IMG/VR virus record: IMGVR_UViG_2711768040_000017
DNA: 19,081 nucleotides
Source of the DNA: a virus
Lineage: Duplodnaviria > Heunggongvirae > Uroviricota > Caudoviricetes
Direction: 5' to 3' (one strand)
The notes under the pieces are model-generated. The model had not been told where the DNA came from. It ran no database searches and worked only from the letters and a program-made list of their open reading frames with translations. The translations under genes and the position numbers were made by a program. Numbering within the stretch: position 1 is the first letter of the stretch; the number at the start of each line of letters is the position of its first letter. This document shows positions 2,668 to 17,573 of the stretch, in pieces.

Positions 2668-5600
2668 TTAACATTCCCCCATCACGTCGCATATTTAACA
2701 GATTGCCCTGCACCCGCTGATCAACCATCCCCATAAGTGCTTTTATTGCCTGAGGGCCAATCTCTCCATTCTGGCCGTCATTTTGAATAGTGATTTGGTA
2801 TACGGGGGCATAGGTAATATCTCCGCCTCCATTACCACTTTTACTATTAATAGCTCTGACACCAAGAGAACCATCGGAAGTTCGTGTTAATGGCATAATG
2901 GCTTCCGGTCCAGCCTCACCAAAAACACCAGCCCCTTTTGCAAAAGCAAAAAATTGCGGGGAATCATAAATACCGTTCGAATACGTGCTCAATGACGGAG
3001 ACTCATAAACACCGCCCTTTGCATTCGGAATAAATTTACTAATAGCACTCCCGATAGTTCCTAAAATCCCCCCAGAAGAACTGTTACTAATGCTGTCGAA
3101 AATCCCAGTAATTGAAGCCTTTAATGCTATTCGACTAAGATCCGAAATCACGGAAGTAGCGAAAGAACGAAAATTTGCCTTGCCTGTCGTGACAAAATCA
3201 CCCAGCGCATCGGTCATCCCATCAAACATCTGAGTCGTGGTTGATTTTATCTGCTCACTGATATCCTTAGTGTCATCCAGCCAGTTATTGAATCCCTGGG
3301 AGGCACCACTAACCCAGTCTCCTGCCTGAATATCGAGCTGCTCGTTTTTCTGTCTGACAATTTCTTTTTCCCGTTCCAGAGCATCATTCAGAGCCTGCAT
3401 TTTCTCTTGAAAAACATGATCTGACATTCCACGGGATTTATCTGCATAGTCACGTTCAAGTTGCAGACGCTGATTGTTATATCCATGTTCAATCCGCAGT
3501 AATTCCTGCTGGCGTTGCTGATTTTTATCGCCAACCCCATAACCAGCAATCTGAATATCATACCCCTGCTGACGATTATCAATCGAAGCCTGCAATGAAT
3601 CACGCCATGCTGTTATTTCGGCGGATTCCTTGATTAGCCTGTTATTTTTTTCAATCGCAACATTTTTCTCCATCAACGTGGTTATTTCTTCCCGGTGTAA
3701 GAGAAGCGATTTCTGATCCTGGGTTAATTTCGATGATGGTCGTGACTCTAGGTCGGCAATCCGCTGACGCCACTTAACCAGTTCCTGTTCAGAGGAACTT
3801 AATTTAACGGTCAACTCAACTTGTGAACTTAGTAACGCATTCTGTTGATTCAGATGATCAATCATTCGTTGGGCTGCATCATCAGAATAATCTTTCGCCT
3901 TTGGTTGCTTTGGATCTTTATAACGCTCATTTATTTGAGCGATAAGATTATTATATTCTTCCTTTGAATACTGATTCTTTAGCTTTTCCAGTTTTGCAAG
4001 TTCACTAGCTCTCTGCTGCTCCCGGGTCTGATATTGTTTTGAAAAGGCATCTGCTCTCTGTCTGAGTTCAATTCCTTCCTGTTGTCGCTTGTTGTAATCG
4101 TTTATTGATGAATTTAGTACGTCCTGAGCAATTTTTTCTGCTTGAAGTACGCCCAATTGCTGCTTTAATCGTGCCAGCCTTTTATTTTGAGCTCCGCCAT
4201 CTCCAATGCCACCTAACCCGAAAACTCCGGATCGGGTATTTTTTTCTATTTCATCAATTTGACGGAGAACATCTGAGATTTTTTGATCAAGGGAGGCCTC
4301 ACGGCCAATATCCAGCATGGAATCCCATGCCCATTTTGCGGAGTCTGCGACAGCTTTCCATGCAGTCTCAAGATAACCAAGATTTTCTTTAATCTGGTTG
4401 GTGCGCTGGATCATTGAGGATGAGTATTCTTCTGTCGCAATGCGGGCGGCCTCCTGCTGGTTCCCTTCATCCTGTAGCGCCTTAATCTGGTTATAAGTCG
4501 CAAGTGTCAGAAAATGGTACTGATCATTAAGTTTTGATATGGCACTGACAGGATCCTTTGCAATTTCATTGAAGTCATTAACCAGTTGTTCGGTTGATAT
4601 TCCTGTTACTTCGCTCGTTTTTACTATCGCTGTCGTCACTTGCTCCAGCGAACTGCTCGCTACCTTTCCCGAACGCACAAGCTGATTTAATACTGCCGCC
4701 GCAGCACCAGTTGTCGAATCAGCCGCATTCCCGGCACGTTGAGCTAAATCGCCCAATTGCCCGCTGGTTGTCCCCAACTGATTTCCGGTAAGAATAAGAG
4801 ATTTATTAAATTCGTCCTGCTCCTGAGAGCCTTTATAGTAAGCCAGTCCTAAGACCCCAACGGCTGCTGCGGCCAGGGTAAAAGGATTAATTAATCCCAG
4901 CACATAAGAACCTACCCCTTTGATCGCCGGGCCAATCCCACCGAACATATCTTTTAGCTGGCCGCCCTGCTGCATTAACACCATAAATGGCGACTGACCA
5001 GTGGACAACCCAACAACAATATCCGTCATTTGTGCAGGCAACATGCGCATAGCAAAAGCCGTTTGTTTTGCCGACATTCCGGTTTTGCTTAATTGTGATT
5101 GAGTAACCTCAAGCTCACTCCGCATAGCACGAAGTTTTCCAGAAAGCTCCTCATACATTTCAGGAGAAAGCATCCCCTTAGCTTTTGCTTCATTGAGCTG
5201 TTTCTGTTGTTCTACCAGACGATTAAAAGCAGTTCCGACAGGATCAAGTTGAGCAATCAGACGTTGCAAAGCAACAACCTGTTCATCATGCGCTTTTGCT
5301 GCTTCTCGCTCTGCCTGAGCCTCTCCGGTAAGCTCTCGCCGTGTTTCCTGTATTTTTCGGCTATAATTCTCAAACTGAGAACCATTTATTTTCCCGGATG
5401 CAAACGCAGCATTAAGTTCATCATGCTGTTGTTCAAGATTTCTTAGCGCCGCAGCCAGAGGGTCGATCTTGTCCAGCATTCTTTGAAAGGCCTGAGCCTG
5501 CGCTTCCTGCTGGGCGGCAGCAAGTTTTCCGGCCTTCTCGGCTTCTCTCTGCGCTTGCGCAACCCCGCTCAATTCCTCTGTGGTTTCATTAAGTTTACGG

Positions 5601-5893
5601 ACAAGAAATTCATATTCTTCTTTATCAATAAGCCCTTTATCGAAAAATTTCTTTAATTCAGAATAGCGTCGACCGACAGTATCAATTGCGGCACCAACTG
5701 GATCAATAGCTGCTTTTAATTTTGCGAGCGCGTTCTTCTCATCTTCTGTTGCCTTAGTCACTTTCCCTGCGCTATTTGCAGCAGTTTCCCCAGCCTGCGT
5801 CATTTTGACTAATGAGGAGGTCAGATTGTCAGCATTATTTTTCGCTCCAGTGCTATCAATAATTATTGCGAGACGCGAGGTTTGCTCTGCCAT
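2660..5893 (-). CDS. Tail tape measure protein (gpH-like), 1077 aa
   Basis: Long coiled-coil-rich N-terminal half with three tandem ~75-aa repeats, a hydrophobic/Gly-rich central segment, and a position directly downstream of the G/GT chaperone pair and upstream of the M/J tail-tip gene. AGGAG Shine-Dalgarno 8-9 nt before the ATG. Confidence 0.9.
5083..5710 (-). repeat. Three diverged tandem coding repeats (~225 bp each) inside the tape measure gene
   Basis: Protein repeats [12 protein letters not shown].., [19 protein letters not shown].., [19 protein letters not shown].. each followed by ..AQAxREAxKA. The DNA shows the repeated ggatcaa/gggtcga cores. Coordinates approximate. Confidence 0.5.
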
Positions 5894-5904
5894 TTATTAA
5901 AACT

Positions 5905-5938
5905 CCTGACAACAAAAAACCCACCGCGAAGTGGGTTT
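5905..5938 (-). terminator. Intrinsic-terminator-like hairpin in the 165-bp gap between the GT chaperone stop and the tape-measure start
   Basis: Minus strand reads aaacccac-ttcgcg-gtgggtttttt-gttgtc: 8-bp stem, 6-nt loop, T-rich tail, immediately upstream of the tape-measure RBS. Confidence 0.4.
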
Positions 5939-6058
5939 CAGGCGACATAATAGTAGATATAGCGATTACGAGGCCACGCAATGCTTTTCTCCAGGAGCAT
6001 CATCGATTTAATTAAAGACACCATCACATCTCTGTAACAGAGTGTACGTAATTAACAA

Positions 6059-6379
6059 CTACACACACTGCTCCTGAAAATACTGGTCATCCAGTGCAAA
6101 GATCACTGCTTCAAATTCATCGCGCTCAATCAATACCGGATGAGTGGCTAAATATTCATTTATCTCTGTCAGAGATAAAGGCAAAGGCACCCCAGCCATT
6201 CCAGCATAACGTCGGGCACGGGATATTACCGAATAGGCGTACAACAACTCCTTAAGCACCGGGTCTATTTCTGGTTCCGGTATCGGTGGCAACCTGAGTT
6301 TTTCTCGCTTCCATCTTGCCTTTTCCCCCCTTTCTCCCCCGAACTCCGATAACCACCGCTGGGCAGCTATGGCTTTTTT
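6059..6379 (-). CDS. T portion of tail assembly chaperone GT, reached by -1 frameshift from G; not independently initiated
   Basis: After slipping at aaaaaag, the -1 frame (gcc ata gct gcc cag cgg ...) runs uninterrupted into the 77-aa ORF frame (ttg cca ccg ata ccg = LPPIPEPEID) and ends 165 bp upstream of the tape measure gene. Confidence 0.55.
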   Translation of the reverse strand, partial: KKAIAAQRWLSEFGGERGEKARWKREKLRLPPIPEPEIDPVLKELLYAYSVISRARRYAGMAGVPLPLSLTEINEYLATHPVLIERDEFEAVIFALDDQYFQEQCV

Positions 6380-6801
6380 ATCGTATCCTGCTTCTGCTGC
6401 TCTTTACCCTGGGCGATGCTGGCTGCTTCTGCAAGGATCTGCCAGTACAACTCTGGATTCTGCTTAAGCAGCGCGATCCCTCGTTCTGCCGTATATTCCA
6501 GTGCAACCTCAACACCATTAACCAGTTCACCAACCCCTTTCCAGTCTTTCAGCAGATAACGAGCGGCATTATCAATGAGTAAATCATCAACAGAATCCAC
6601 CTCGGAAACCTTTGAAATATCAAACTCCTTCGTTCCGACGTGCAAACTGGCATCCATTTTCTCAATGTGGCGACGGATTAATGCATTACGGGAGCGATAC
6701 TGATCGTTATCGCTGCTTGCCACCAACAGTTTTAACCCGTCTATCCAGACTGCATGAGCAATTGATTCATCACGCAGCCGTTCATTCACGGTTTGCATCA
6801 T
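6367..6801 (-). CDS. Tail assembly chaperone (gpG-like), 144 aa
   Basis: Acidic small protein immediately upstream of the tape measure gene; its last codons (ata aaa aag cca tag) contain a canonical slippery heptamer. MMQ start, ATG at 6799-6801. Confidence 0.55.
   Translation of the reverse strand: MMQTVNERLRDESIAHAVWIDGLKLLVASSDNDQYRSRNALIRRHIEKMDASLHVGTKEFDISKVSEVDSVDDLLIDNAARYLLKDWKGVGELVNGVEVALEYTAERGIALLKQNPELYWQILAEAASIAQGKEQQKQDTIKKP
6373..6379 (-). other. Programmed -1 ribosomal frameshift slippery heptamer A_AAA_AAG (G to GT)
   Basis: Plus-strand ctttttt at 6373-6379 is aaaaaag on the minus strand, two codons before the G stop; the -1 frame is open for ~100 further codons. Confidence 0.55.
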
Positions 6802-8188
6802 TGATTTCCATCAACATTACACTCTGATTTTTTAATTCATCGATCACATCCTCTGGACGGGAATCCTGATCGATAAATTTCAACGCCTGCAACACCCGAA
6901 CCGCATCAATCTGACGTATATCACCGCCCTGACGCAATGACTGAACAGCCAGCGCGGAGGATGAGTCAAACACCTGGGCAGATACATCCAGTTCAGTGCG
7001 CACATCCACATTGCCACCGCAACTCTCTCCGCTCCATTCCGCCATTATCTGGAGAATATTATCGAGGGCATCTTCGAGGGAGTTCGCCATTGTATAAAGC
7101 GGCGAGTGTTCCTGCATCCGCTCTTCATTAGTCTGATCAACAGATTTGGTGGATGTATTTTCAGCCCGCAGAAGTTTAGCGCCGGCATGACGCATCTGAT
7201 TTTCCAGCTTCTCAAGTGATGTTTCGCCAGATTCTATCGCTGCGCCACTATGTTCAACATATTCGAGGCCATTTTTTGTTCTGTCCTCAAAAATCGTAGC
7301 CGTGGATGCACCAACCGTCAGTTCTTCATTCCTGTCCAGCCCGTAGGCCACCAGCAATGGAACGCGGGCAACATGAAGAATATTGTCCTGCTCGCTCTGG
7401 CTTTGCCAGTGCTTGATATTCAGCAAGCCAAGATTAAGCAATGGCGGTGTACCACGCATAAACCCTGTTTTCTTCGTATACAGTGTTACCAGAGGAATAT
7501 CATCACGGCTGGTATTCCATGACTCATGAAGCATCCAGACAGATTCGCCATTAGTACCTTCGCTGCGTCGATAAATTTCTACTCGACGGGGCATAATATG
7601 GCGGATCTGCTCCACCTTCTTCTGCCCGAAATCATCACCATCAATAATGATGACCTCTTTTATACGCAAATCAGTGAGAACAACTTTCCCTTTTTCAACT
7701 TTCGATTTCCATCCAATAACCTGGCGTGGATTCAGCATCGTAACGTACGGGCGACCACCGGCCGCGTTTTCATCGGCTTTTGTCCGAATCTCGTTCATAT
7801 CCGTTCGTGGATAGTCCACCAGCGCATGTGCCACACCATACTGAAATGCGAGACTGAAAAATTGCTGCGCCCACACATCCAGTCGGCTCCCCTCCATGTC
7901 GATATTTTCTGCATATTCCCTGATTTTTTCCGGCGTTTCCTCACTCAATACTGTCGGCTCTGCAAATATGCGCCCAATATTTTGTTTGATGCTTTCTTCA
8001 TACACAGGAAGTAACGTAGCCACAGACAGGCGTTTTTTATAAGCGTCTTCATCTTCATTAGGCCATTTGGGGAGATAATTTTCCCCCTGCCTGCGCATTT
8101 CAAGCGTACCGCCCATCAATGCGTCGTTAATATCCCACGCCTCCAGCATATCGTTATAGTCGAGGTTGGGTGTTGATATATCAGCCAT
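6782..8188 (-). CDS. Putative portal protein (468 aa), possibly C-terminally altered
   Basis: Starts 4 nt inside the end of the terminase large subunit gene (coupled), with portal-typical size and position. No specific motif recognised by eye. Its last 6 codons overlap the G chaperone start. Confidence 0.45.
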   Translation of the reverse strand: MADISTPNLDYNDMLEAWDINDALMGGTLEMRRQGENYLPKWPNEDEDAYKKRLSVATLLPVYEESIKQNIGRIFAEPTVLSEETPEKIREYAENIDMEGSRLDVWAQQFFSLAFQYGVAHALVDYPRTDMNEIRTKADENAAGGRPYVTMLNPRQVIGWKSKVEKGKVVLTDLRIKEVIIIDGDDFGQKKVEQIRHIMPRRVEIYRRSEGTNGESVWMLHESWNTSRDDIPLVTLYTKKTGFMRGTPPLLNLGLLNIKHWQSQSEQDNILHVARVPLLVAYGLDRNEELTVGASTATIFEDRTKNGLEYVEHSGAAIESGETSLEKLENQMRHAGAKLLRAENTSTKSVDQTNEERMQEHSPLYTMANSLEDALDNILQIMAEWSGESCGGNVDVRTELDVSAQVFDSSSALAVQSLRQGGDIRQIDAVRVLQALKFIDQDSRPEDVIDELKNQSVMLMEINDANRE

Positions 8189-12614: not shown

Positions 12615-14090
12615 TTAGGAGCGCCAAAAAAAACCTGAAAACAATATAATAACAGGATAAATTTCAAGGCGACCAAGAATCATAGCTATGCACATTAAAC
12701 ATTTTGCAATGTCATTAAGCACTCCGAATGACGATGCAGTAGCCCCAAAACCTAATCCCATATTATTAATACATGCAGCCACTGTTGCAAATGATGTAAG
12801 AAAATCATATCCCATACCATTTAACACCAGTATAAAAAACACCGTGAAGAGAGTATAAAGAAAAAAGAAACTCCATACAGACCTCATTACACGATCTGTA
12901 ACTATCTTCCCTCCTACATTTACACTCAACAACGCTCTGGGATGAGAAAGCTGATTTATCTCGTGTTTGCTTTGTTTGAAAAGTATAAGAAATCGAAGTG
13001 ACTTAATTCCACCACAAGTTGAACCTATACATCCCCCAAAGAAACTTGACAACAGCAAAAACACTATCGTGTGCGTGGGCCAACTTGCATAATCCTGCGT
13101 AGCTAAACCATTATCAGTGAGCATGGAGCTGGCAAGAAAAAACGAATGAATAAAACTTCCATGCAAGTCATACATACCTATATGCCAGACCTGGAAAGAG
13201 GTAACAATGATCACCCCTAAGGCTATTAACAGAAAGAAACGAAGTTCAATATCTCTGATTAAAGGTTTTATCGTTTTCCTGCTAATAACAATATACCAAA
13301 GAGTGAAGTTGAAAGCCGATAGCAGGGAAAAAGAACCAGCCACCAGCTCAACCAAATAGTTATTAAAATATCCGATACTCTCGCTATGAGTTGAGAAACC
13401 ACCAAGCGAAACTGTGGAAATCCCGTGACAAATAGCATCAAACAAAGGCATTCCTGCAAGTCTATAACAGACAATACAAGCAATACCTAATAAAGAATAA
13501 GTTATCCACAGTGTCCGTGACGTATCGGCCAGGCGGGGAGTGAGTTTGTCATCCTTAAATGGCCCCGGCATTTCTGACTGATAAAGCTTTGCACCACCAA
13601 TACCCAATAATGGCAATACAGCAACCGCCAGAACAATAACTCCTAAACCACCTATAAAATTTAACTGTGACCGATAGTACAAATATGCCCGAGGTAATGA
13701 ACTAACATCATCAATTACAGTTGCTCCTGTTGTTGTTATTCCAGAAACCCCTTCAAACAGAGCATCAATGAACGTTAAATTAAGTTCTGAGTCAATCCAT
13801 AAAGGGAATGCACTAATAACAGAAAACAAAATCCAAAACATTACAATTATAATAAACCCATCACGGGTACGTAATTGAATGCCAGATTTCTTAGTTGTAT
13901 ACCACGCTCCGCCACCAATGCAAAAAAATATAACGAAAGTTATAAAGAAAACGAACAGGCTTTTTTCTTTATAAAACAATGCTACAACCATTGGTGGCAA
14001 CATTGAAAGACTATAGAGCCAAACCAGGAACCCACACATATGAGTAACAACTCTTACATGAGATGTATTCATATCTAAATATTCTTTCAA
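12615..14090 (-). CDS. trkG: Potassium uptake protein TrkG (Trk-system membrane subunit); true start probably the internal MNTSHVRV at 14072
   Basis: Polytopic membrane protein with repeated pore-loop glycine motifs; translation matches E. coli TrkG as recalled (MNTSHVRVVTHMCGFLVWLYSL..). Markedly AT-rich relative to flanking phage genes. Confidence 0.85.
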   Translation of the reverse strand: MKEYLDMNTSHVRVVTHMCGFLVWLYSLSMLPPMVVALFYKEKSLFVFFITFVIFFCIGGGAWYTTKKSGIQLRTRDGFIIIVMFWILFSVISAFPLWIDSELNLTFIDALFEGVSGITTTGATVIDDVSSLPRAYLYYRSQLNFIGGLGVIVLAVAVLPLLGIGGAKLYQSEMPGPFKDDKLTPRLADTSRTLWITYSLLGIACIVCYRLAGMPLFDAICHGISTVSLGGFSTHSESIGYFNNYLVELVAGSFSLLSAFNFTLWYIVISRKTIKPLIRDIELRFFLLIALGVIIVTSFQVWHIGMYDLHGSFIHSFFLASSMLTDNGLATQDYASWPTHTIVFLLLSSFFGGCIGSTCGGIKSLRFLILFKQSKHEINQLSHPRALLSVNVGGKIVTDRVMRSVWSFFFLYTLFTVFFILVLNGMGYDFLTSFATVAACINNMGLGFGATASSFGVLNDIAKCLMCIAMILGRLEIYPVIILFSGFFWRS

Positions 14091-15383: not shown

Positions 15384-15483
15384 AGCCTCACCTCCGCACG
15401 GAACGGATGGCATAGTTATTATGTGTAGGCTTTCAGACACATCAATCAGAGCCTTAATTGATATATATGCTGGAGACGATGCA

Positions 15484-15509
15484 ATATAAAAAGCTCGCCG
15501 TAGCGAGCT
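15484..15509 (-). terminator. Intrinsic terminator between the downstream lipoprotein gene and the holin gene
   Basis: Minus strand reads agctcgc-tacg-gcgagct followed by ttttatatt: 7-bp GC-rich stem, 4-nt loop, U-tract. Confidence 0.5.
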
Positions 15510-15634
15510 AATAAAATGTATTTCTCTGATATTATGTTTATTTGTATTAGCTCAGACTTGACATCACAGGTTTCGTATATAGAACATCATCAAATCTGTC
15601 AGTTTGCTATGAATGAGATATAGTACTTGAAGAG

Positions 15635-16030
15635 CTAACCTCGCATGTCAAAGCCAGATTTCTGAAAATCTCTGTAGACTTCCGGATTGTTGAAGGCCGG
15701 AAATTTGGCTTTATGAGCTGCGGACTTTATCGCTTCGCAATAGGCTTTATCACCGTTACTGGTAGATATTTTTAACGCCGTGCCATCCTGAGAGAATTCC
15801 ATATGCAACCTGCATTTTTTCCCTTTCCAGTTATGCGGCTCATCAAGTTTGGCATTAATTGCAGCTCTGATTCCCCGCGCTTGCGCCCCCCATTCATCCT
15901 GATCATCCCAGCGTCCTGAACTGCAACTACCTGTAGCAGTAGTTTTGTGGCAATCTGAAGGGTGTAAAGGTGTGCATCCCGCAACAAAACCGACCCAAAA
16001 AGTCAACATAACGATTTTCTTTAATCCCAC
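15635..16030 (-). CDS. Lipoprotein (131 aa) with a diverged TolA C-terminal domain III-like domain; GTG start
   Basis: Signal peptide MGLKKIVMLTFWVGFVAGC (lipobox VAGC); GAGGAG Shine-Dalgarno 6 nt upstream. C-terminal pattern I.AAINAKL...W.GKKC.L...F..DG....S...GD.A.C.A...A...A.FP....PEVY..F parallels the paralog upstream and TolA-III. Confidence 0.55.
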   Translation of the reverse strand: MGLKKIVMLTFWVGFVAGCTPLHPSDCHKTTATGSCSSGRWDDQDEWGAQARGIRAAINAKLDEPHNWKGKKCRLHMEFSQDGTALKISTSNGDKAYCEAIKSAAHKAKFPAFNNPEVYRDFQKSGFDMRG

Positions 16031-16180
16031 TTCTTGCTCCTCAATCCATTAAAATCTCAGCAATAGTAGTTGTTACGTCCGCCACTGGCTCAGAGCTGAC
16101 TATCCGCTAAATTTAGCTCAGTGCCGTAGCTGTGTCAGAACAAACCTAAGCCGAAACCGTTTATTACAAAACAATAAATA

Positions 16181-16609
16181 TCAGGGTTTAAAATCCAGCA
16201 CCCCATTTTGAAATACTTTATATACTTCCGGCGAAGGGGGGGCAGGTATATCAGCATTCTTTATCGCATTCATCGCTTCACGACATAAATCGAGGTCTCC
16301 ACTTTCTCTTTTAACCTCCAGTAGAAGGCCATTCGGGGCCATATGCATTCTCAGTGTACACTCTTTTCCTGAATACTTACTCGCATCCCCGAACTGTTTT
16401 TCGATGGCGCTCTTGATTTGATGGGCATACAGACGGATATCCTCACTAACATCAGAAGTACGTTCAGATGAACTCACATACTGTGTCTCTATTGCTTTAT
16501 CGGAGTAATATGATGTACGGTCATGATAATTTGTCGATACAGCATCAGTGCACCCGATAATAATCCCACTAATAATCAACGTAAGAATTGATGCGCTACG
16601 AAAACCCAT
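16181..16609 (-). CDS. Lipoprotein (142 aa) with a TolA C-terminal domain III-like domain
   Basis: Signal peptide MGFRSASILTLIISGIIIGC (lipobox IIGC, Thr at +2). The C-terminal 85 aa (YAHQIKSAIEKQFGDASKYSGKECTLRMHMAPNGLLLEVKRESGDLDLCREAMNAIKNADIPAPPSPEVYKVFQNGVLDFKP) align almost residue for residue with the E. coli TolA C-terminus as recalled (YAGQIKSAIESKFYDASSYAGKTCTLRIKLAPDGMLLDIKPEGGDPALCQAALAAAKLAKIPKPPSQAVYEVFKNAPLDFKP). Confidence 0.7.
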   Translation of the reverse strand: MGFRSASILTLIISGIIIGCTDAVSTNYHDRTSYYSDKAIETQYVSSSERTSDVSEDIRLYAHQIKSAIEKQFGDASKYSGKECTLRMHMAPNGLLLEVKRESGDLDLCREAMNAIKNADIPAPPSPEVYKVFQNGVLDFKP

Positions 16610-16638
16610 TTTTCCTCACATATGTCATATAGTAAAGG

Positions 16639-16668
16639 ATTATATATACCGTTGTTTTGGACGCTCAA
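16639..16668 (-). promoter_or_regulatory. Putative sigma70 promoter for the upstream TolA-like lipoprotein gene
   Basis: On the minus strand TTGAGC (-35) - 18 bp - TATAAT (perfect -10), about 30 nt upstream of the GAGGA Shine-Dalgarno and ATG. Confidence 0.3.
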
Positions 16669-17196
16669 ACAGCGAATCAGATCAAATAAAACGCACATTT
16701 GTTAACATTTACACAAAGTCTGCGTGGGATATTCTGAAAGAATATCCATAATGTGGAGAGAATCTATTGAAGTGCATGGTGCCGGGTGCCTCCCGGTGAA
16801 CAAAATGTTCGTGATACCTGTCGGCGACAGAAAAGGTTAATGGTATCACCCCACCGCACAGGGGGATTCACCATGCAGGAGTTTTCTTAGCAAACTCACT
16901 GCGCGCCCGGCAACTCCCAACCACATAAAATGCGGAGTTTGTGGTATTTATGCATATAACTCGCAGGAATTATCTTAAAAAACTGATGTCGATCCGGATT
17001 AAAAAGAAGCAGGTCATCATCAGATGACTGGAAAAAAGGAAAAAAAAAATACTCATCATACAGTTTTGATTGCAGGGATGAGCCTGCTATGCACAATATG
17101 CAGAATATAAGCAAGATAAAAATATGCAGGCATATTATTTCGGATTTTGTTATTAACACAACCTTTTTAATAATCATTTGGCATACAATAAACCAG

Positions 17197-17226
17197 TCCA
17201 AAAAGAACCGCCTAAACAGGCGGTTG
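17197..17226 (-). terminator. Intrinsic-terminator-like hairpin (second terminator downstream of the Q gene)
   Basis: Minus strand reads aaccgcc-tgttta-ggcggtt followed by ctttttgg. Confidence 0.4.
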
Positions 17227-17545
17227 GTCAATACAAAGGATGCTTCGTCTTTATTATAGTAATCTGAGGCGTCGGGTGTCTTGTATCAGACAACATATTG
17301 TCCCGCTAAACAGCGAATTACAAACCACCCTGCAATGATCTCTCATCTCATTTTATATGAGTTGACGACATCAGGATAACGCATCATCAGCCCCTGCCAA
17401 GAAATATCAAAACTCCCGCCAGCAATGTGTTATCACAATATTGTAAAAAAAACACAGCACCGAAACTATAACTGGTCTCTGTTATAATTTGGAGCAGAAA
17501 GACCAGTTGCCCAACTAGCAGCATTCTCCCCTGCTTTCCTGACGT

Positions 17546-17572
17546 AAAAAAACCGCATTAAGCGGTTTTTTT
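17546..17572. terminator. Bidirectional terminator hairpin ~80-105 nt downstream of the Q stop (tR'-like)
   Basis: aaaaaaa-ccgc-attaa-gcgg-ttttttt: perfectly symmetric A7/T7 arms around a short GC stem, so it presents a U-tract in either orientation. Confidence 0.5.
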
Positions 17573-17573
17573 A

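What the first reader, a model, noticed from the sequence alone, without database searches (positions are those of the whole stretch)
15635..16609. Two tandem prophage lipoproteins that mimic TolA domain III
Both ORFs have lipoprotein signal peptides (IIGC and VAGC lipoboxes). The 142-aa one carries a C-terminal domain that aligns almost residue for residue with the C-terminal domain III of TolA, including the GK.CTLR, GD..LC and PP...VY.VF....LDFKP motifs. The 131-aa paralog keeps the same skeleton but is far more diverged. TolA-III is the periplasmic hub contacted by TolB, Pal and CpoB, and is the entry co-receptor for Ff/CTX-type filamentous phage g3p and group A colicins. A lipid-anchored copy detached from TolA domains I and II would be expected to act as a decoy (exclusion of Tol-dependent phages or colicins) or to perturb Tol-Pal envelope function. 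Two diverged copies suggest diversification against different ligands.
Basis: partly seen in the sequence, partly recalled or inferred. Interest (0 to 1): 0.85.

Follow-up and report, generated by a model that had tools for sequence, protein, structure and literature searches.

The report
Prophage lipoproteins copying TolA's tip
A Rac-like E. coli prophage carries two small genes for predicted outer-membrane lipoproteins, each built from a copy of the C-terminal domain of the envelope protein TolA, which colicins and filamentous phages use to enter cells; they are most likely decoys, but no functional study was found in the papers I could search.

Summary
Two minus-strand ORFs, 16181-16609 (142 aa, "A") and 15635-16030 (131 aa, "B"), have lipoprotein signal peptides and a TolA C-terminal domain. 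Pfam PF06519 gives E=2e-23 for A and 1e-14 for B. A aligns gap-free with E. coli TolA 334-421 at 59% identity and keeps the exact LDFKP strand where TolB, colicin N and phage g3p dock. AlphaFold models of both match TolA-III crystal structures (rmsd 0.6 and 1.1 Å).

They sit between a Q-like gene and the holin of a Rac-like prophage, flanked by a promoter-like site and a terminator-like hairpin.

The "tandem paralog diversification" idea is not supported. A and B are only 31% identical and occur separately. A-types sit alone in other lambdoid prophages. B-types occur on I-complex conjugative plasmids (after nikB), on pO157-type plasmids, and in non-prophage chromosomal sites of Enterobacter, Citrobacter and Serratia.

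At least 44 distinct 50%-identity clusters of stand-alone TolA-III lipoproteins exist, none with the inner-membrane retention Asp.

The domain is already annotated (A is misnamed "tolA"). Ten literature searches found no functional study. The best reading is a motor-uncoupled, outer-membrane-tethered TolA-III decoy. This is plausible but untested.

The parts
16181..16609 (-). Gene A: 142-aa predicted lipoprotein with a C-terminal TolA domain III. PGAP names it 'tolA'.
   Evidence: ORF; Pfam PF06519 E=2.4e-23; 59% gap-free identity to TolA 334-421; AF2 model plus Foldseek to TolA-III; phrog_5772, unknown function.
16550..16609 (-). Signal peptide and lipobox of A (residues 1-20, ...IIGC; +2 residue Thr).
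   Evidence: Read directly from the translation. The lipobox is conserved in the family. Thr at +2 rather than Asp predicts Lol transfer to the outer membrane (established sorting rule, not tested here).
16184..16447 (-). TolA-III domain of A (residues 55-142), including the Cys84/Cys109 pair and the C-terminal beta3 strand VLDFKP.
15635..16030 (-). Gene B: 131-aa predicted lipoprotein with a diverged TolA domain III.
   Evidence: ORF with GTG start and GAGGAG SD; Pfam PF06519 E=1.3e-14; PDB TolA E=5e-9; AF2 model plus Foldseek; phrog_5772.
15974..16030 (-). Signal peptide and lipobox of B (residues 1-19, ...VAGC; +2 residue Thr).
   Evidence: Translation; conserved in 370 homologue clusters.
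15638..15901 (-). TolA-III domain of B (residues 44-131). It is preceded by the conserved Cys-loop/acidic linker CHKTTATGSCSSGRWDDQDEWG (residues 27-48).
16639..16668 (-). Sigma-70-like promoter candidate (TTGAGC-18-TATAAT, 10/12) about 30 nt upstream of the ATG of A.
   Evidence: Consensus scan only (11 sites found against 7.2±2.9 expected), so this is weak evidence. It is not conserved upstream of the P0028 A-variant.
15492..15509 (-). Intrinsic-terminator-like hairpin (AGCTCGCTACGGCGAGC + T-run) between the stop codon of B and the holin gene.
   Evidence: With the promoter candidate it gives the promoter-genes-terminator layout typical of morons. This is an inference.

Best explanation
A and B are accessory cargo genes inserted between the late-gene activator (Q-like) and the lysis cassette of a Rac-like prophage. 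Each encodes a lipoprotein that Lol is predicted to place on the inner face of the outer membrane. Each carries a TolA-III domain on a disordered tether of about 30 residues.

Both lack TolA domains I and II, so they cannot couple to the TolQR motor. The proposed mechanism is a motor-uncoupled decoy. Ligands that normally add a beta-strand to TolA-III would be captured at the outer membrane and never energised. Such ligands are the translocation domains of Tol-dependent bacteriocins such as colicins N and A, and the g3p/pIII N1 domains of filamentous phages.

Reported affinities would favour this outcome. The parasitic ligands bind TolA-III at about 1 µM and TolB binds at about 40 µM. Modest expression could therefore protect the cell without a full tol defect.

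Shown here: homology, fold, lipobox, retained beta3 edge in A, genomic layout and distribution. Inferred: lipidation, outer-membrane location, expression in lysogens, ligand binding and protection.
For: - Domain identity and fold.
- A keeps TolA L417-D418-F419-K420-P421 exactly, and 4 of 9 ColA-site residues identically plus three conservative changes. Beta3 is the shared site for TolB, ColN and g3p-N1, binding depends largely on backbone H-bonds, and the Kd values come from PMC4339652 and PMC7391070. ColA contact residues come from PMC3365938.
- No TM anchor or domain II is present. NCBIfam TolA equivalog models match only their last ~95 positions, and the PRK09510 score of 107.8 is below its cut-off of 213.
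- Lipoboxes are present with non-Asp +2 residues in A, in B and in all 44 lipobox-bearing stand-alone relatives. Most of these relatives retain the canonical C-terminal LDF[KR][PL] strand.
- Periplasm-targeted TolAIII perturbs the envelope (PMC6195910). That it also causes colicin tolerance (Levengood-Freyermuth 1993) is my recollection; the paper could not be opened.
- The distribution fits a competition or defence cargo gene. It is found at the Q-S moron site of several unrelated lambdoid prophages with different Q and lysis genes. It follows the nikAB relaxase genes of pilus-making I-complex plasmids; 2x9a, one of the TolA-III structures matched here, is the IF1 g3p-TolA complex, and that IF1 uses I pili as its receptor is my recollection. 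It is on pO157-type plasmids and next to GmrSD/HEPN genes in Serratia.
- B-family proteins are 78-89% identical across genera, which argues for purifying selection.
Against: - No binding, localisation, expression or phenotype data exist. Ten literature searches found no study.
- There is no PADLOC hit.
- The identity of A at the beta3 and ColA sites is not clearly higher than its overall 59% identity, so there is no statistical sign of interface-specific conservation.
- B has lost all three ColA-contacting lysines and has GFDMRG instead of PLDFKP. Its ligand may be something else.
- B is nearly invariant across genera whose own TolA differs, which is not what a host-TolA mimic tracking local bacteriocins would predict.
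- The promoter and terminator are consensus matches only. The genes may be expressed mainly as late genes.
- A decoy strong enough to matter could also titrate TolB and damage the envelope.
Confidence: 0.45

Rival explanations
1. Tol-Pal modulator (dominant negative). The tethered TolA-III domains bind the TolB N-terminus at the outer membrane and compete with real TolA. This loosens the outer membrane. The pay-off would be faster or more complete lysis and virion release when the genes are read through from the Q-dependent late promoter, or more vesiculation in lysogens.
For: The genes lie inside the late transcription unit, directly upstream of holin, lysozyme and Rz. The beta3 of A is identical to the TolB-binding strand, and single mutations there give a complete tol phenotype (PMC4339652). 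Periplasmic TolAIII causes leakage of periplasmic proteins (PMC6195910).
Against: B-type genes occur alone on plasmids and in non-prophage chromosomal sites with no lysis function nearby. The prophage already has a complete holin/endolysin/spanin set. TolA-TolB affinity is weak at about 40 µM, so high expression would be needed. Constitutive envelope damage would be costly for plasmids and chromosomes that keep the gene.
Confidence: 0.2
2. A different ligand or process, at least for B. The TolA/TonB-type fold would act as a generic beta-strand-capturing module for a conserved periplasmic target unrelated to colicin or Ff entry. Candidates are a step of conjugative DNA or pilus traffic, entry exclusion, or TolB capture through both the domain and the conserved Trp/acidic linker.
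For: B is a deep outlier, at most 36% identical to any other TolA-III in the set. It has altered ligand edges. Its linker CHKTTATGSCSSGRWDDQDEWG is conserved as strongly as the domain. On I-complex plasmids it lies 67 nt after nikB.
Against: The I-complex TraDIS paper opened here does not mention such a gene in its discussion of conjugation factors (text search only). B also occurs in contexts without any conjugation genes. No candidate ligand could be identified.
Confidence: 0.2
3. Functionless remnants: fragments of a captured tolA gene that persist by hitch-hiking in a decaying cryptic prophage.
For: The surrounding prophage is degraded, with several pseudogenes in the identical RefSeq copy. 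PGAP simply labels A 'tolA'.
Against: Both ORFs are intact and have acquired signal peptides with lipoboxes and good Shine-Dalgarno sites. The families are conserved in hundreds of clusters across genera and replicon types. At least 44 independent 50%-identity clusters share the same lipoprotein plus TolA-III design. No megablast similarity to chromosomal tolA was seen: only 1372 of 5426 genomes gave any hit.
Confidence: 0.05

Closest known systems
TolA domain III of the E. coli Tol-Pal system (PDB 1TOL, 1S62, 3QDP/3QDR, 2X9A)
   Same: Same Pfam family and same fold, with the same disulfide cysteines. A is 59% identical, gap-free, with an identical C-terminal beta3 strand.
   Different: There is no inner-membrane anchor (domain I), no helical domain II and no tol-pal operon context. 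A lipoprotein signal peptide and a short disordered tether replace them, so the proteins cannot be energised by TolQR.
Artificial periplasmic TolAIII (signal-sequence fusions; Levengood-Freyermuth 1993, Wan & Baneyx 1998)
   Same: An isolated TolA-III domain is delivered to the periplasm without domains I and II. It is reported to cause leakage of periplasmic proteins (PMC6195910) and, from memory, colicin tolerance.
   Different: Those are engineered, soluble and overexpressed. A and B are natural, predicted to be lipid-anchored to the outer membrane, and carried by mobile elements.
Phage and plasmid outer-membrane lipoproteins that block entry routes from inside (T5 Llp, Cor of phi80/N15/mEp phages acting on FhuA; TraT)
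   Same: Small lipoproteins encoded by mobile elements that are thought to protect the host by acting on an entry component in the periplasm or outer membrane. This comparison rests on my own knowledge and is a functional analogy only.
   Different: There is no sequence relationship. Those proteins inactivate an outer-membrane receptor. A and B would instead imitate the periplasmic co-receptor. No exclusion phenotype has been shown for A or B.
PHROG phrog_5772 (unknown function)
   Same: Both A and B match it end to end (E=1.6e-62 and 6.7e-65).
   Different: The family carries no functional annotation. Only one of 50,697 deposited phage genomes, mEp460_ev081, encodes either protein.

Membership tests
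TolA (full-length Tol-Pal protein; NCBIfam PRK09510 / TIGR02794 equivalogs) | N-terminal transmembrane anchor (domain I) that couples to TolQ-TolR | tested here: not met
   The N-termini are lipoprotein signal peptides. The models match only their last ~95 positions. A scores 107.8 bits against a cut-off of 213 for PRK09510.
TolA (full-length Tol-Pal protein; NCBIfam PRK09510 / TIGR02794 equivalogs) | Long helical periplasm-spanning domain II | tested here: not met
   The proteins are 142 and 131 aa. Residues 21-50 of A and 20-43 of B are short linkers modelled as disordered.
TolA (full-length Tol-Pal protein; NCBIfam PRK09510 / TIGR02794 equivalogs) | Encoded in the ybgC-tolQRA-tolB-pal-cpoB cluster | tested here: not met
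   The genes lie between a Q-like gene and the holin of a Rac-like prophage.
TolA C-terminal domain (Pfam PF06519) | Score above the Pfam gathering threshold | tested here: met
   A scores 82.6 bits and B 54.6 bits, against a cut-off of 25.
TolA C-terminal domain (Pfam PF06519) | alpha/beta fold of TolA-III with the conserved disulfide pair | tested here: met
   AF2 pLDDT is >90 over the domains. Foldseek top hits are TolA-III structures with TM 0.92-0.96. The Cys363/Cys388 equivalents are present in both.
TolA C-terminal domain (Pfam PF06519) | C-terminal beta3 strand used for beta-strand augmentation (TolA A415-P421) | tested here: met
   A has GVLDFKP against TolA APLDFKP. B has SGFDMRG, which keeps D418 and beta-forming residues but is otherwise diverged. 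Actual ligand binding could not be tested.
Bacterial lipoproteins (Lgt/LspA/Lnt substrates, Lol-sorted) | Signal peptide ending in a lipobox [LVI][ASTVI][GAS]C | tested here: met
   IIGC in A and VAGC in B, conserved in homologues. This was read by pattern only; no SignalP-type predictor was available.
Bacterial lipoproteins (Lgt/LspA/Lnt substrates, Lol-sorted) | Actual lipid modification and outer-membrane localisation | not testable with these tools
   Only the +2 rule can be applied. Thr follows the Cys in both, and none of the 44 relatives has Asp at +2.
Lambdoid-phage moron | Insertion between conserved phage genes that is present in some relatives and absent in others | tested here: met
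   The same cassette sits between a different Q and a different lysis cassette in mEp460_ev081. An A-variant occurs without B in other prophages. An EDL933 prophage has a TerB-family gene at the equivalent site.
Lambdoid-phage moron | Own promoter and terminator allowing expression from the repressed prophage | tested here: inconclusive
   A 10/12 sigma-70-like site lies upstream of A and a hairpin with a T-run lies after B. These are consensus matches only, and the upstream region is not conserved in the A-variant.
Known anti-phage defence systems (PADLOC-DB v2) | Match to any defence-system protein model | tested here: not met
   No hits at E<=0.1 for either protein.

The most novel reading that the evidence does not exclude
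Stand-alone, outer-membrane-tethered TolA-III lipoproteins may be a widespread and so far unrecognised class of immunity genes carried by mobile elements in Enterobacterales. They would protect by molecular mimicry of the periplasmic co-receptor. The domain would intercept Tol-dependent bacteriocins and pilus-specific filamentous phages before they reach the energised TolA.

Carriers found here are prophage Q-S sites, I-complex conjugative plasmids, pO157-type plasmids and chromosomal islets.

The B lineage may add a second trick. Its invariant SCSSGRWDDQDEWG linker loosely resembles a colicin TolB box, so B might clamp TolB through both the propeller and the N-terminus.
Probability: 0.3. Interest if true: 0.8.

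Novelty: new variant of a known kind. Interest (0 to 1): 0.6.

Why it matters
If the decoy reading is right, protection would come from copying the periplasmic co-receptor. That differs from toxin-specific immunity proteins and from blocking a surface receptor. One gene could then give broad tolerance to several group A colicins and to filamentous phages.

The genes are common. The tandem pair is in 450 of 5,426 complete E. coli genomes. B-type genes are on about 600 sequenced plasmids, including pO157-type and I-complex resistance plasmids. They could therefore affect strain competition in the gut. They could also affect the performance of colicin-based or phage-based antimicrobials and the host range of pilus-specific phages.

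There is a practical point too. RefSeq labels the 142-aa protein 'tolA: cell envelope integrity protein TolA', which gives many genomes a spurious second tolA.

Tried and rejected
- **Literature.** Ten full-text searches found no paper on these proteins. The terms combined TolA with prophage, decoy, lambdoid/Rac, IncI1/nikB, pO157, TolA-like/TolA family protein, and Tol-dependent colicins.
- **I-complex plasmids.** The TraDIS paper on these plasmids has no mention of TolA, colicin or cell envelope.
- **Levengood-Freyermuth 1993.** PMC196117 is not held, so its result is quoted from memory only.
- **EDL933_2012.** PMC11125564 says this CP-933O gene, 'TolA'-type, rises 32-fold with ciprofloxacin. 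I found no TolA-domain gene in EDL933 1.88-1.93 Mb. That prophage has a TerB-family gene at the Q-S site. I dropped this lead as unverified.
- **PADLOC.** No hit.
- **Deposited phages.** tblastn of both proteins found only mEp460_ev081 among 50,697 records. The family is essentially absent from isolated phages.
- **Promoter conservation.** Aligning the regions upstream of A and of the P0028 variant showed they are unrelated. Promoter conservation could therefore not be used as evidence.
- **Local tandem duplication.** Rejected. A vs B identity is 31%, the best relative of A is E. coli TolA-III at 60%, and B is an outlier whose nearest relative is another Cys-loop lipoprotein, P0181, at 34%.
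- **Word-indexed homologue search.** It returned only close relatives and did not list chromosomal TolA. The exhaustive representative search was needed to see the wider family.
- **Complex prediction.** Prediction with TolB, g3p or colicin peptides was not possible with the available structure tool.
Full report
**1. What is there**

The interval 15635-16609 holds two complete ORFs on the minus strand.

- Gene A (16181-16609, 142 aa) starts at an ATG behind GAGGA. It opens with MGFRSASILTLIISGIIIGC.
- Gene B (15635-16030, 131 aa) starts at a GTG behind GAGGAG. It opens with MGLKKIVMLTFWVGFVAGC.
- RefSeq annotates B from an internal ATG (375 nt). Homologues in other genera keep a Lys-rich N-region before the hydrophobic core, so the longer form is the better call.
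- Both signal peptides end in a canonical lipobox. Thr follows the Cys in both. By the standard +2 rule this predicts Lol-dependent transfer to the outer membrane. That is an inference and was not tested.

**2. TolA similarity is real and strong**

- Pfam PF06519 (TolA C-terminal) scores 82.6 bits (E=2.4e-23) for A and 54.6 bits (E=1.3e-14) for B. The cut-off is 25.
- NCBIfam's full-length TolA models match only with their last ~95 positions. For A against PRK09510 the score is half the cut-off.
- Against PDB sequences, A residues 55-142 align without a gap to E. coli TolA 334-421, ending on the same last residue (E=5e-28). Identity is 52/88.
- B aligns over 80 residues at 34% identity (E=5e-9).
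- AlphaFold2 models have pLDDT >90 across the domain and a disordered tether: residues 21-50 in A, and 20 to about 43 in B.
- Foldseek puts E. coli TolA-III crystal structures first for both. A vs 2x9a_B gives rmsd 0.6 Å and TM 0.96. B vs 3qdp gives rmsd 1.1 Å and TM 0.92.
- Both keep the TolA disulfide cysteines.

**3. Ligand edges**

According to Ridley & Lakey 2015 (PMC4339652) and the Tol-Pal review PMC7391070:

- The TolB N-terminus, colicin N and phage g3p-N1 all add a beta-strand to TolA beta3 (A415-K420).
- D418P or K420P mutations abolish all three interactions and give a full tol phenotype.
- Colicin A binds the opposite sheet edge, L375-P380 plus K368, K379 and K396 (PMC3365938).

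Mapping these positions gives the following.

- A has L417-D418-F419-K420-P421 unchanged. It keeps L375, L376, K379 and K396, with conservative changes elsewhere.
- B has FDMRG at beta3 and has lost all three lysines of the ColA site.
- So A is a faithful copy of the E. coli docking surfaces and B is not.
- The conservation of these sites in A is not clearly higher than its 59% overall identity. I do not claim interface-specific selection.

**4. Genomic setting**

- A 100%-identical copy in E. coli 101EVA lies in a Rac-like prophage: recET, kilR, sieB, ydaF, trkG, ynaK, ydaY.
- The local gene order there is DUF1367, DUF1364, a DUF1133 Q-like gene, A, B, essD holin, rrrD lysozyme, Rz/rzoD, trkG.
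- A sigma-70-like site (TTGAGC-18-TATAAT) lies just upstream of A. A GC hairpin with a T-run lies between B and the holin.
- This is the promoter-gene-terminator layout of a moron. These are consensus matches only, and the scan found 11 promoter-like sites against 7.2±2.9 expected.
- The same A-B cassette sits between a different Q and a different lysis cassette in phage mEp460_ev081. That is the only one of 50,697 deposited phage genomes with either protein.

**5. Distribution changes the picture**

- At least 80% of 15400-17300 is present in 450 of 5,426 complete E. coli genomes. Some part is present in 1,372 genomes.
- A and B are not a local duplication. They are 31% identical to each other.
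- The nearest relative of A in a mixed set is E. coli TolA-III itself at 60%. B is an outlier, at most 36% identical to anything.
- A-type variants (66% identical, P0028) occur alone at the Q-S site of other lambdoid prophages, next to TfpB, AraC-like and nanS-p genes. They are found in 136 further genomes.
- B-type genes at 87% nucleotide identity are on about 600 plasmids.
  - On I-complex (IncI1/B/O, IncK2/Z) conjugative plasmids they lie directly after nikA-nikB.
  - They also occur on pO157-type IncF plasmids near toxB.
- B-family proteins at 78-89% identity occur in Citrobacter, Enterobacter, Klebsiella, Raoultella and Serratia. They sit in non-prophage chromosomal sites that differ by genus:
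  - between a glutathione peroxidase and a RidA-family gene in Enterobacter;
  - beside the ars operon in Citrobacter;
  - beside GmrSD_N and HEPN genes in Serratia.
- An exhaustive HMMER scan of 1.84 billion cluster representatives found 333 clusters at E≤1e-3.
  - Of the best 146, 88 are 200 aa or shorter. Of these, 44 are 100-200-aa proteins with a lipobox.
  - None has Asp at +2. Most end in the canonical LDF[KR][PL] strand.
  - Named members come from Serratia, Kosakonia and Hafnia. All are labelled simply 'TolA'.
- PHROGs places A and B together in phrog_5772, 'unknown function'. PADLOC has no match.

**6. Mechanism**

The shown facts are as follows.

- An intact TolA-III fold on a short tether.
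- A lipoprotein signal predicted to send it to the outer membrane.
- No motor-coupling domains.
- An unchanged beta3 docking strand in A.
- Carriage by prophages, plasmids and variable chromosomal sites.

The most economical reading is a motor-uncoupled decoy placed where incoming ligands first emerge into the periplasm. Reported affinities are about 1 µM for ColN and g3p-N1 and about 40 µM for TolB. These would let a decoy intercept parasites preferentially.

Periplasm-targeted TolAIII is used biotechnologically to release periplasmic proteins (PMC6195910). From memory, Levengood-Freyermuth et al. 1993 showed it also confers colicin tolerance. That paper could not be opened.

On I-complex plasmids B follows the relaxase genes. 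Those plasmids make the I pili that, to my recollection, filamentous phage If1 uses as its receptor; 2x9a is the IF1 g3p-TolA complex. That fits an anti-filamentous-phage role, but it is circumstantial.

I put 0.45 on the decoy. The rivals are:

- a Tol-Pal dominant-negative that loosens the envelope for lysis or vesiculation (0.2), weakened by B's occurrence far from any lysis genes;
- a different ligand or process, especially for B (0.2);
- functionless remnants (0.05), contradicted by the acquired lipoprotein leaders and the breadth of conservation.

**7. Comparison with known systems and novelty**

- The proteins are members of the TolA C-terminal domain family. They are not TolA: domain I, domain II and the operon context were each tested and not met.
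- The homology itself is already in public annotation. RefSeq calls B 'TolA C-terminal domain-containing protein' and mislabels A as 'tolA'.
- What appears new is the recognition of a broad family of lipid-anchored, stand-alone TolA-III proteins on mobile elements, and the decoy hypothesis.
- Ten full-text searches found nothing on them. The library lacks most subscription journals, so absence is not proof.
- I rate this a new variant of a known kind with interest 0.6. It is a clear, cheap-to-test hypothesis on a common gene family, but all functional steps are still inferred.

Noticed in passing
window 16720-16906 (-): Full-length match to the Rfam sRNA family STnc100 (RF02076, 86.6 bits against a gathering score of 47). 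It lies about 110 nt upstream of the start codon of gene A and just upstream of its promoter candidate. The same element precedes A in mEp460_ev081 (L004 3200-3390, 114 bits). It is absent from the P0028-variant prophages, where two tRNA genes occupy that position.
   Followed up: partly
window 15887-15952 (-), B residues 27-48: The tether of B (CHKTTATGSCSSGRWDDQDEWG) is almost invariant across genera, unlike the variable tether of A. It contains an extra Cys pair. Its SG...W...WG acidic motif loosely resembles the colicin E9 TolB box (GASDGSGWSSENNPWG, quoted from memory). It might be a second binding epitope. This was not tested.
   Followed up: no
L002 6004-6435, L003 6004-6435 (I-complex plasmids): A B-type gene (WP_001335086.1) lies 67 nt downstream of the nikB relaxase gene on IncI1/B/O and IncK2/Z conjugative plasmids, opposite trbABC. 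It probably belongs to the relaxase operon.
   Followed up: partly
L013 6003-6434 (pO157-type plasmid pTA150): A B-type gene (WP_001453090.1) is carried on non-mobilisable IncF plasmids of the pO157 type, about 1.8 kb from toxB. Some 300 of the matching plasmid records are non-mobilisable.
   Followed up: partly
L018-L020 (Serratia) 5001-7736: In Serratia the B-type gene sits next to a GmrSD_N-domain gene and a HEPN-domain gene, after nrdDG. This looks like a small defence islet.
   Followed up: no
window 16181-16609: RefSeq/PGAP names this 142-aa prophage lipoprotein 'tolA: cell envelope integrity protein TolA' in hundreds of genomes. That gives those genomes an apparent second tolA. Stand-alone homologues in Serratia, Kosakonia and Hafnia carry the same misleading name.
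   Followed up: yes
window 17206-17282 (-) and 17548-17573 (-): Downstream of the Q-like gene there is a promoter-like site (AAGACA-18-TATAAT, 17282..17253) followed within ~30 nt by a terminator hairpin (17225..17206). This may be the late promoter with its Q-sensitive terminator. A second strong hairpin with flanking A/T runs (AAAAAACCGCTTAATGCGGTTTTTTT) lies at about 17548-17573.
   Followed up: no
window 12615-14090 (-): The potassium transporter gene trkG lies inside the prophage, directly after the Rz gene, as in Rac of E. coli K-12. From my recollection of the K-12 Rac map, that copy has lost the Q-A-B-holin-lysozyme segment, so this window looks like a fuller version of Rac.
   Followed up: partly
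L004 (Escherichia phage mEp460_ev081, LR597641.1 40533-41507): This is the only deposited phage genome with A and B. It carries them at 99-100% identity between a lambda-type Q and an unrelated lysis cassette. That suggests the cassette was picked up from a resident Rac-like prophage by recombination.
   Followed up: partly
window 16896-17231 (-): A 111-aa TTG-initiated ORF in the AT-rich spacer between the Q-like gene and A. It is not annotated in the identical RefSeq copy, overlaps the terminator hairpin and runs into the STnc100 match. It is probably not a gene.
   Followed up: no
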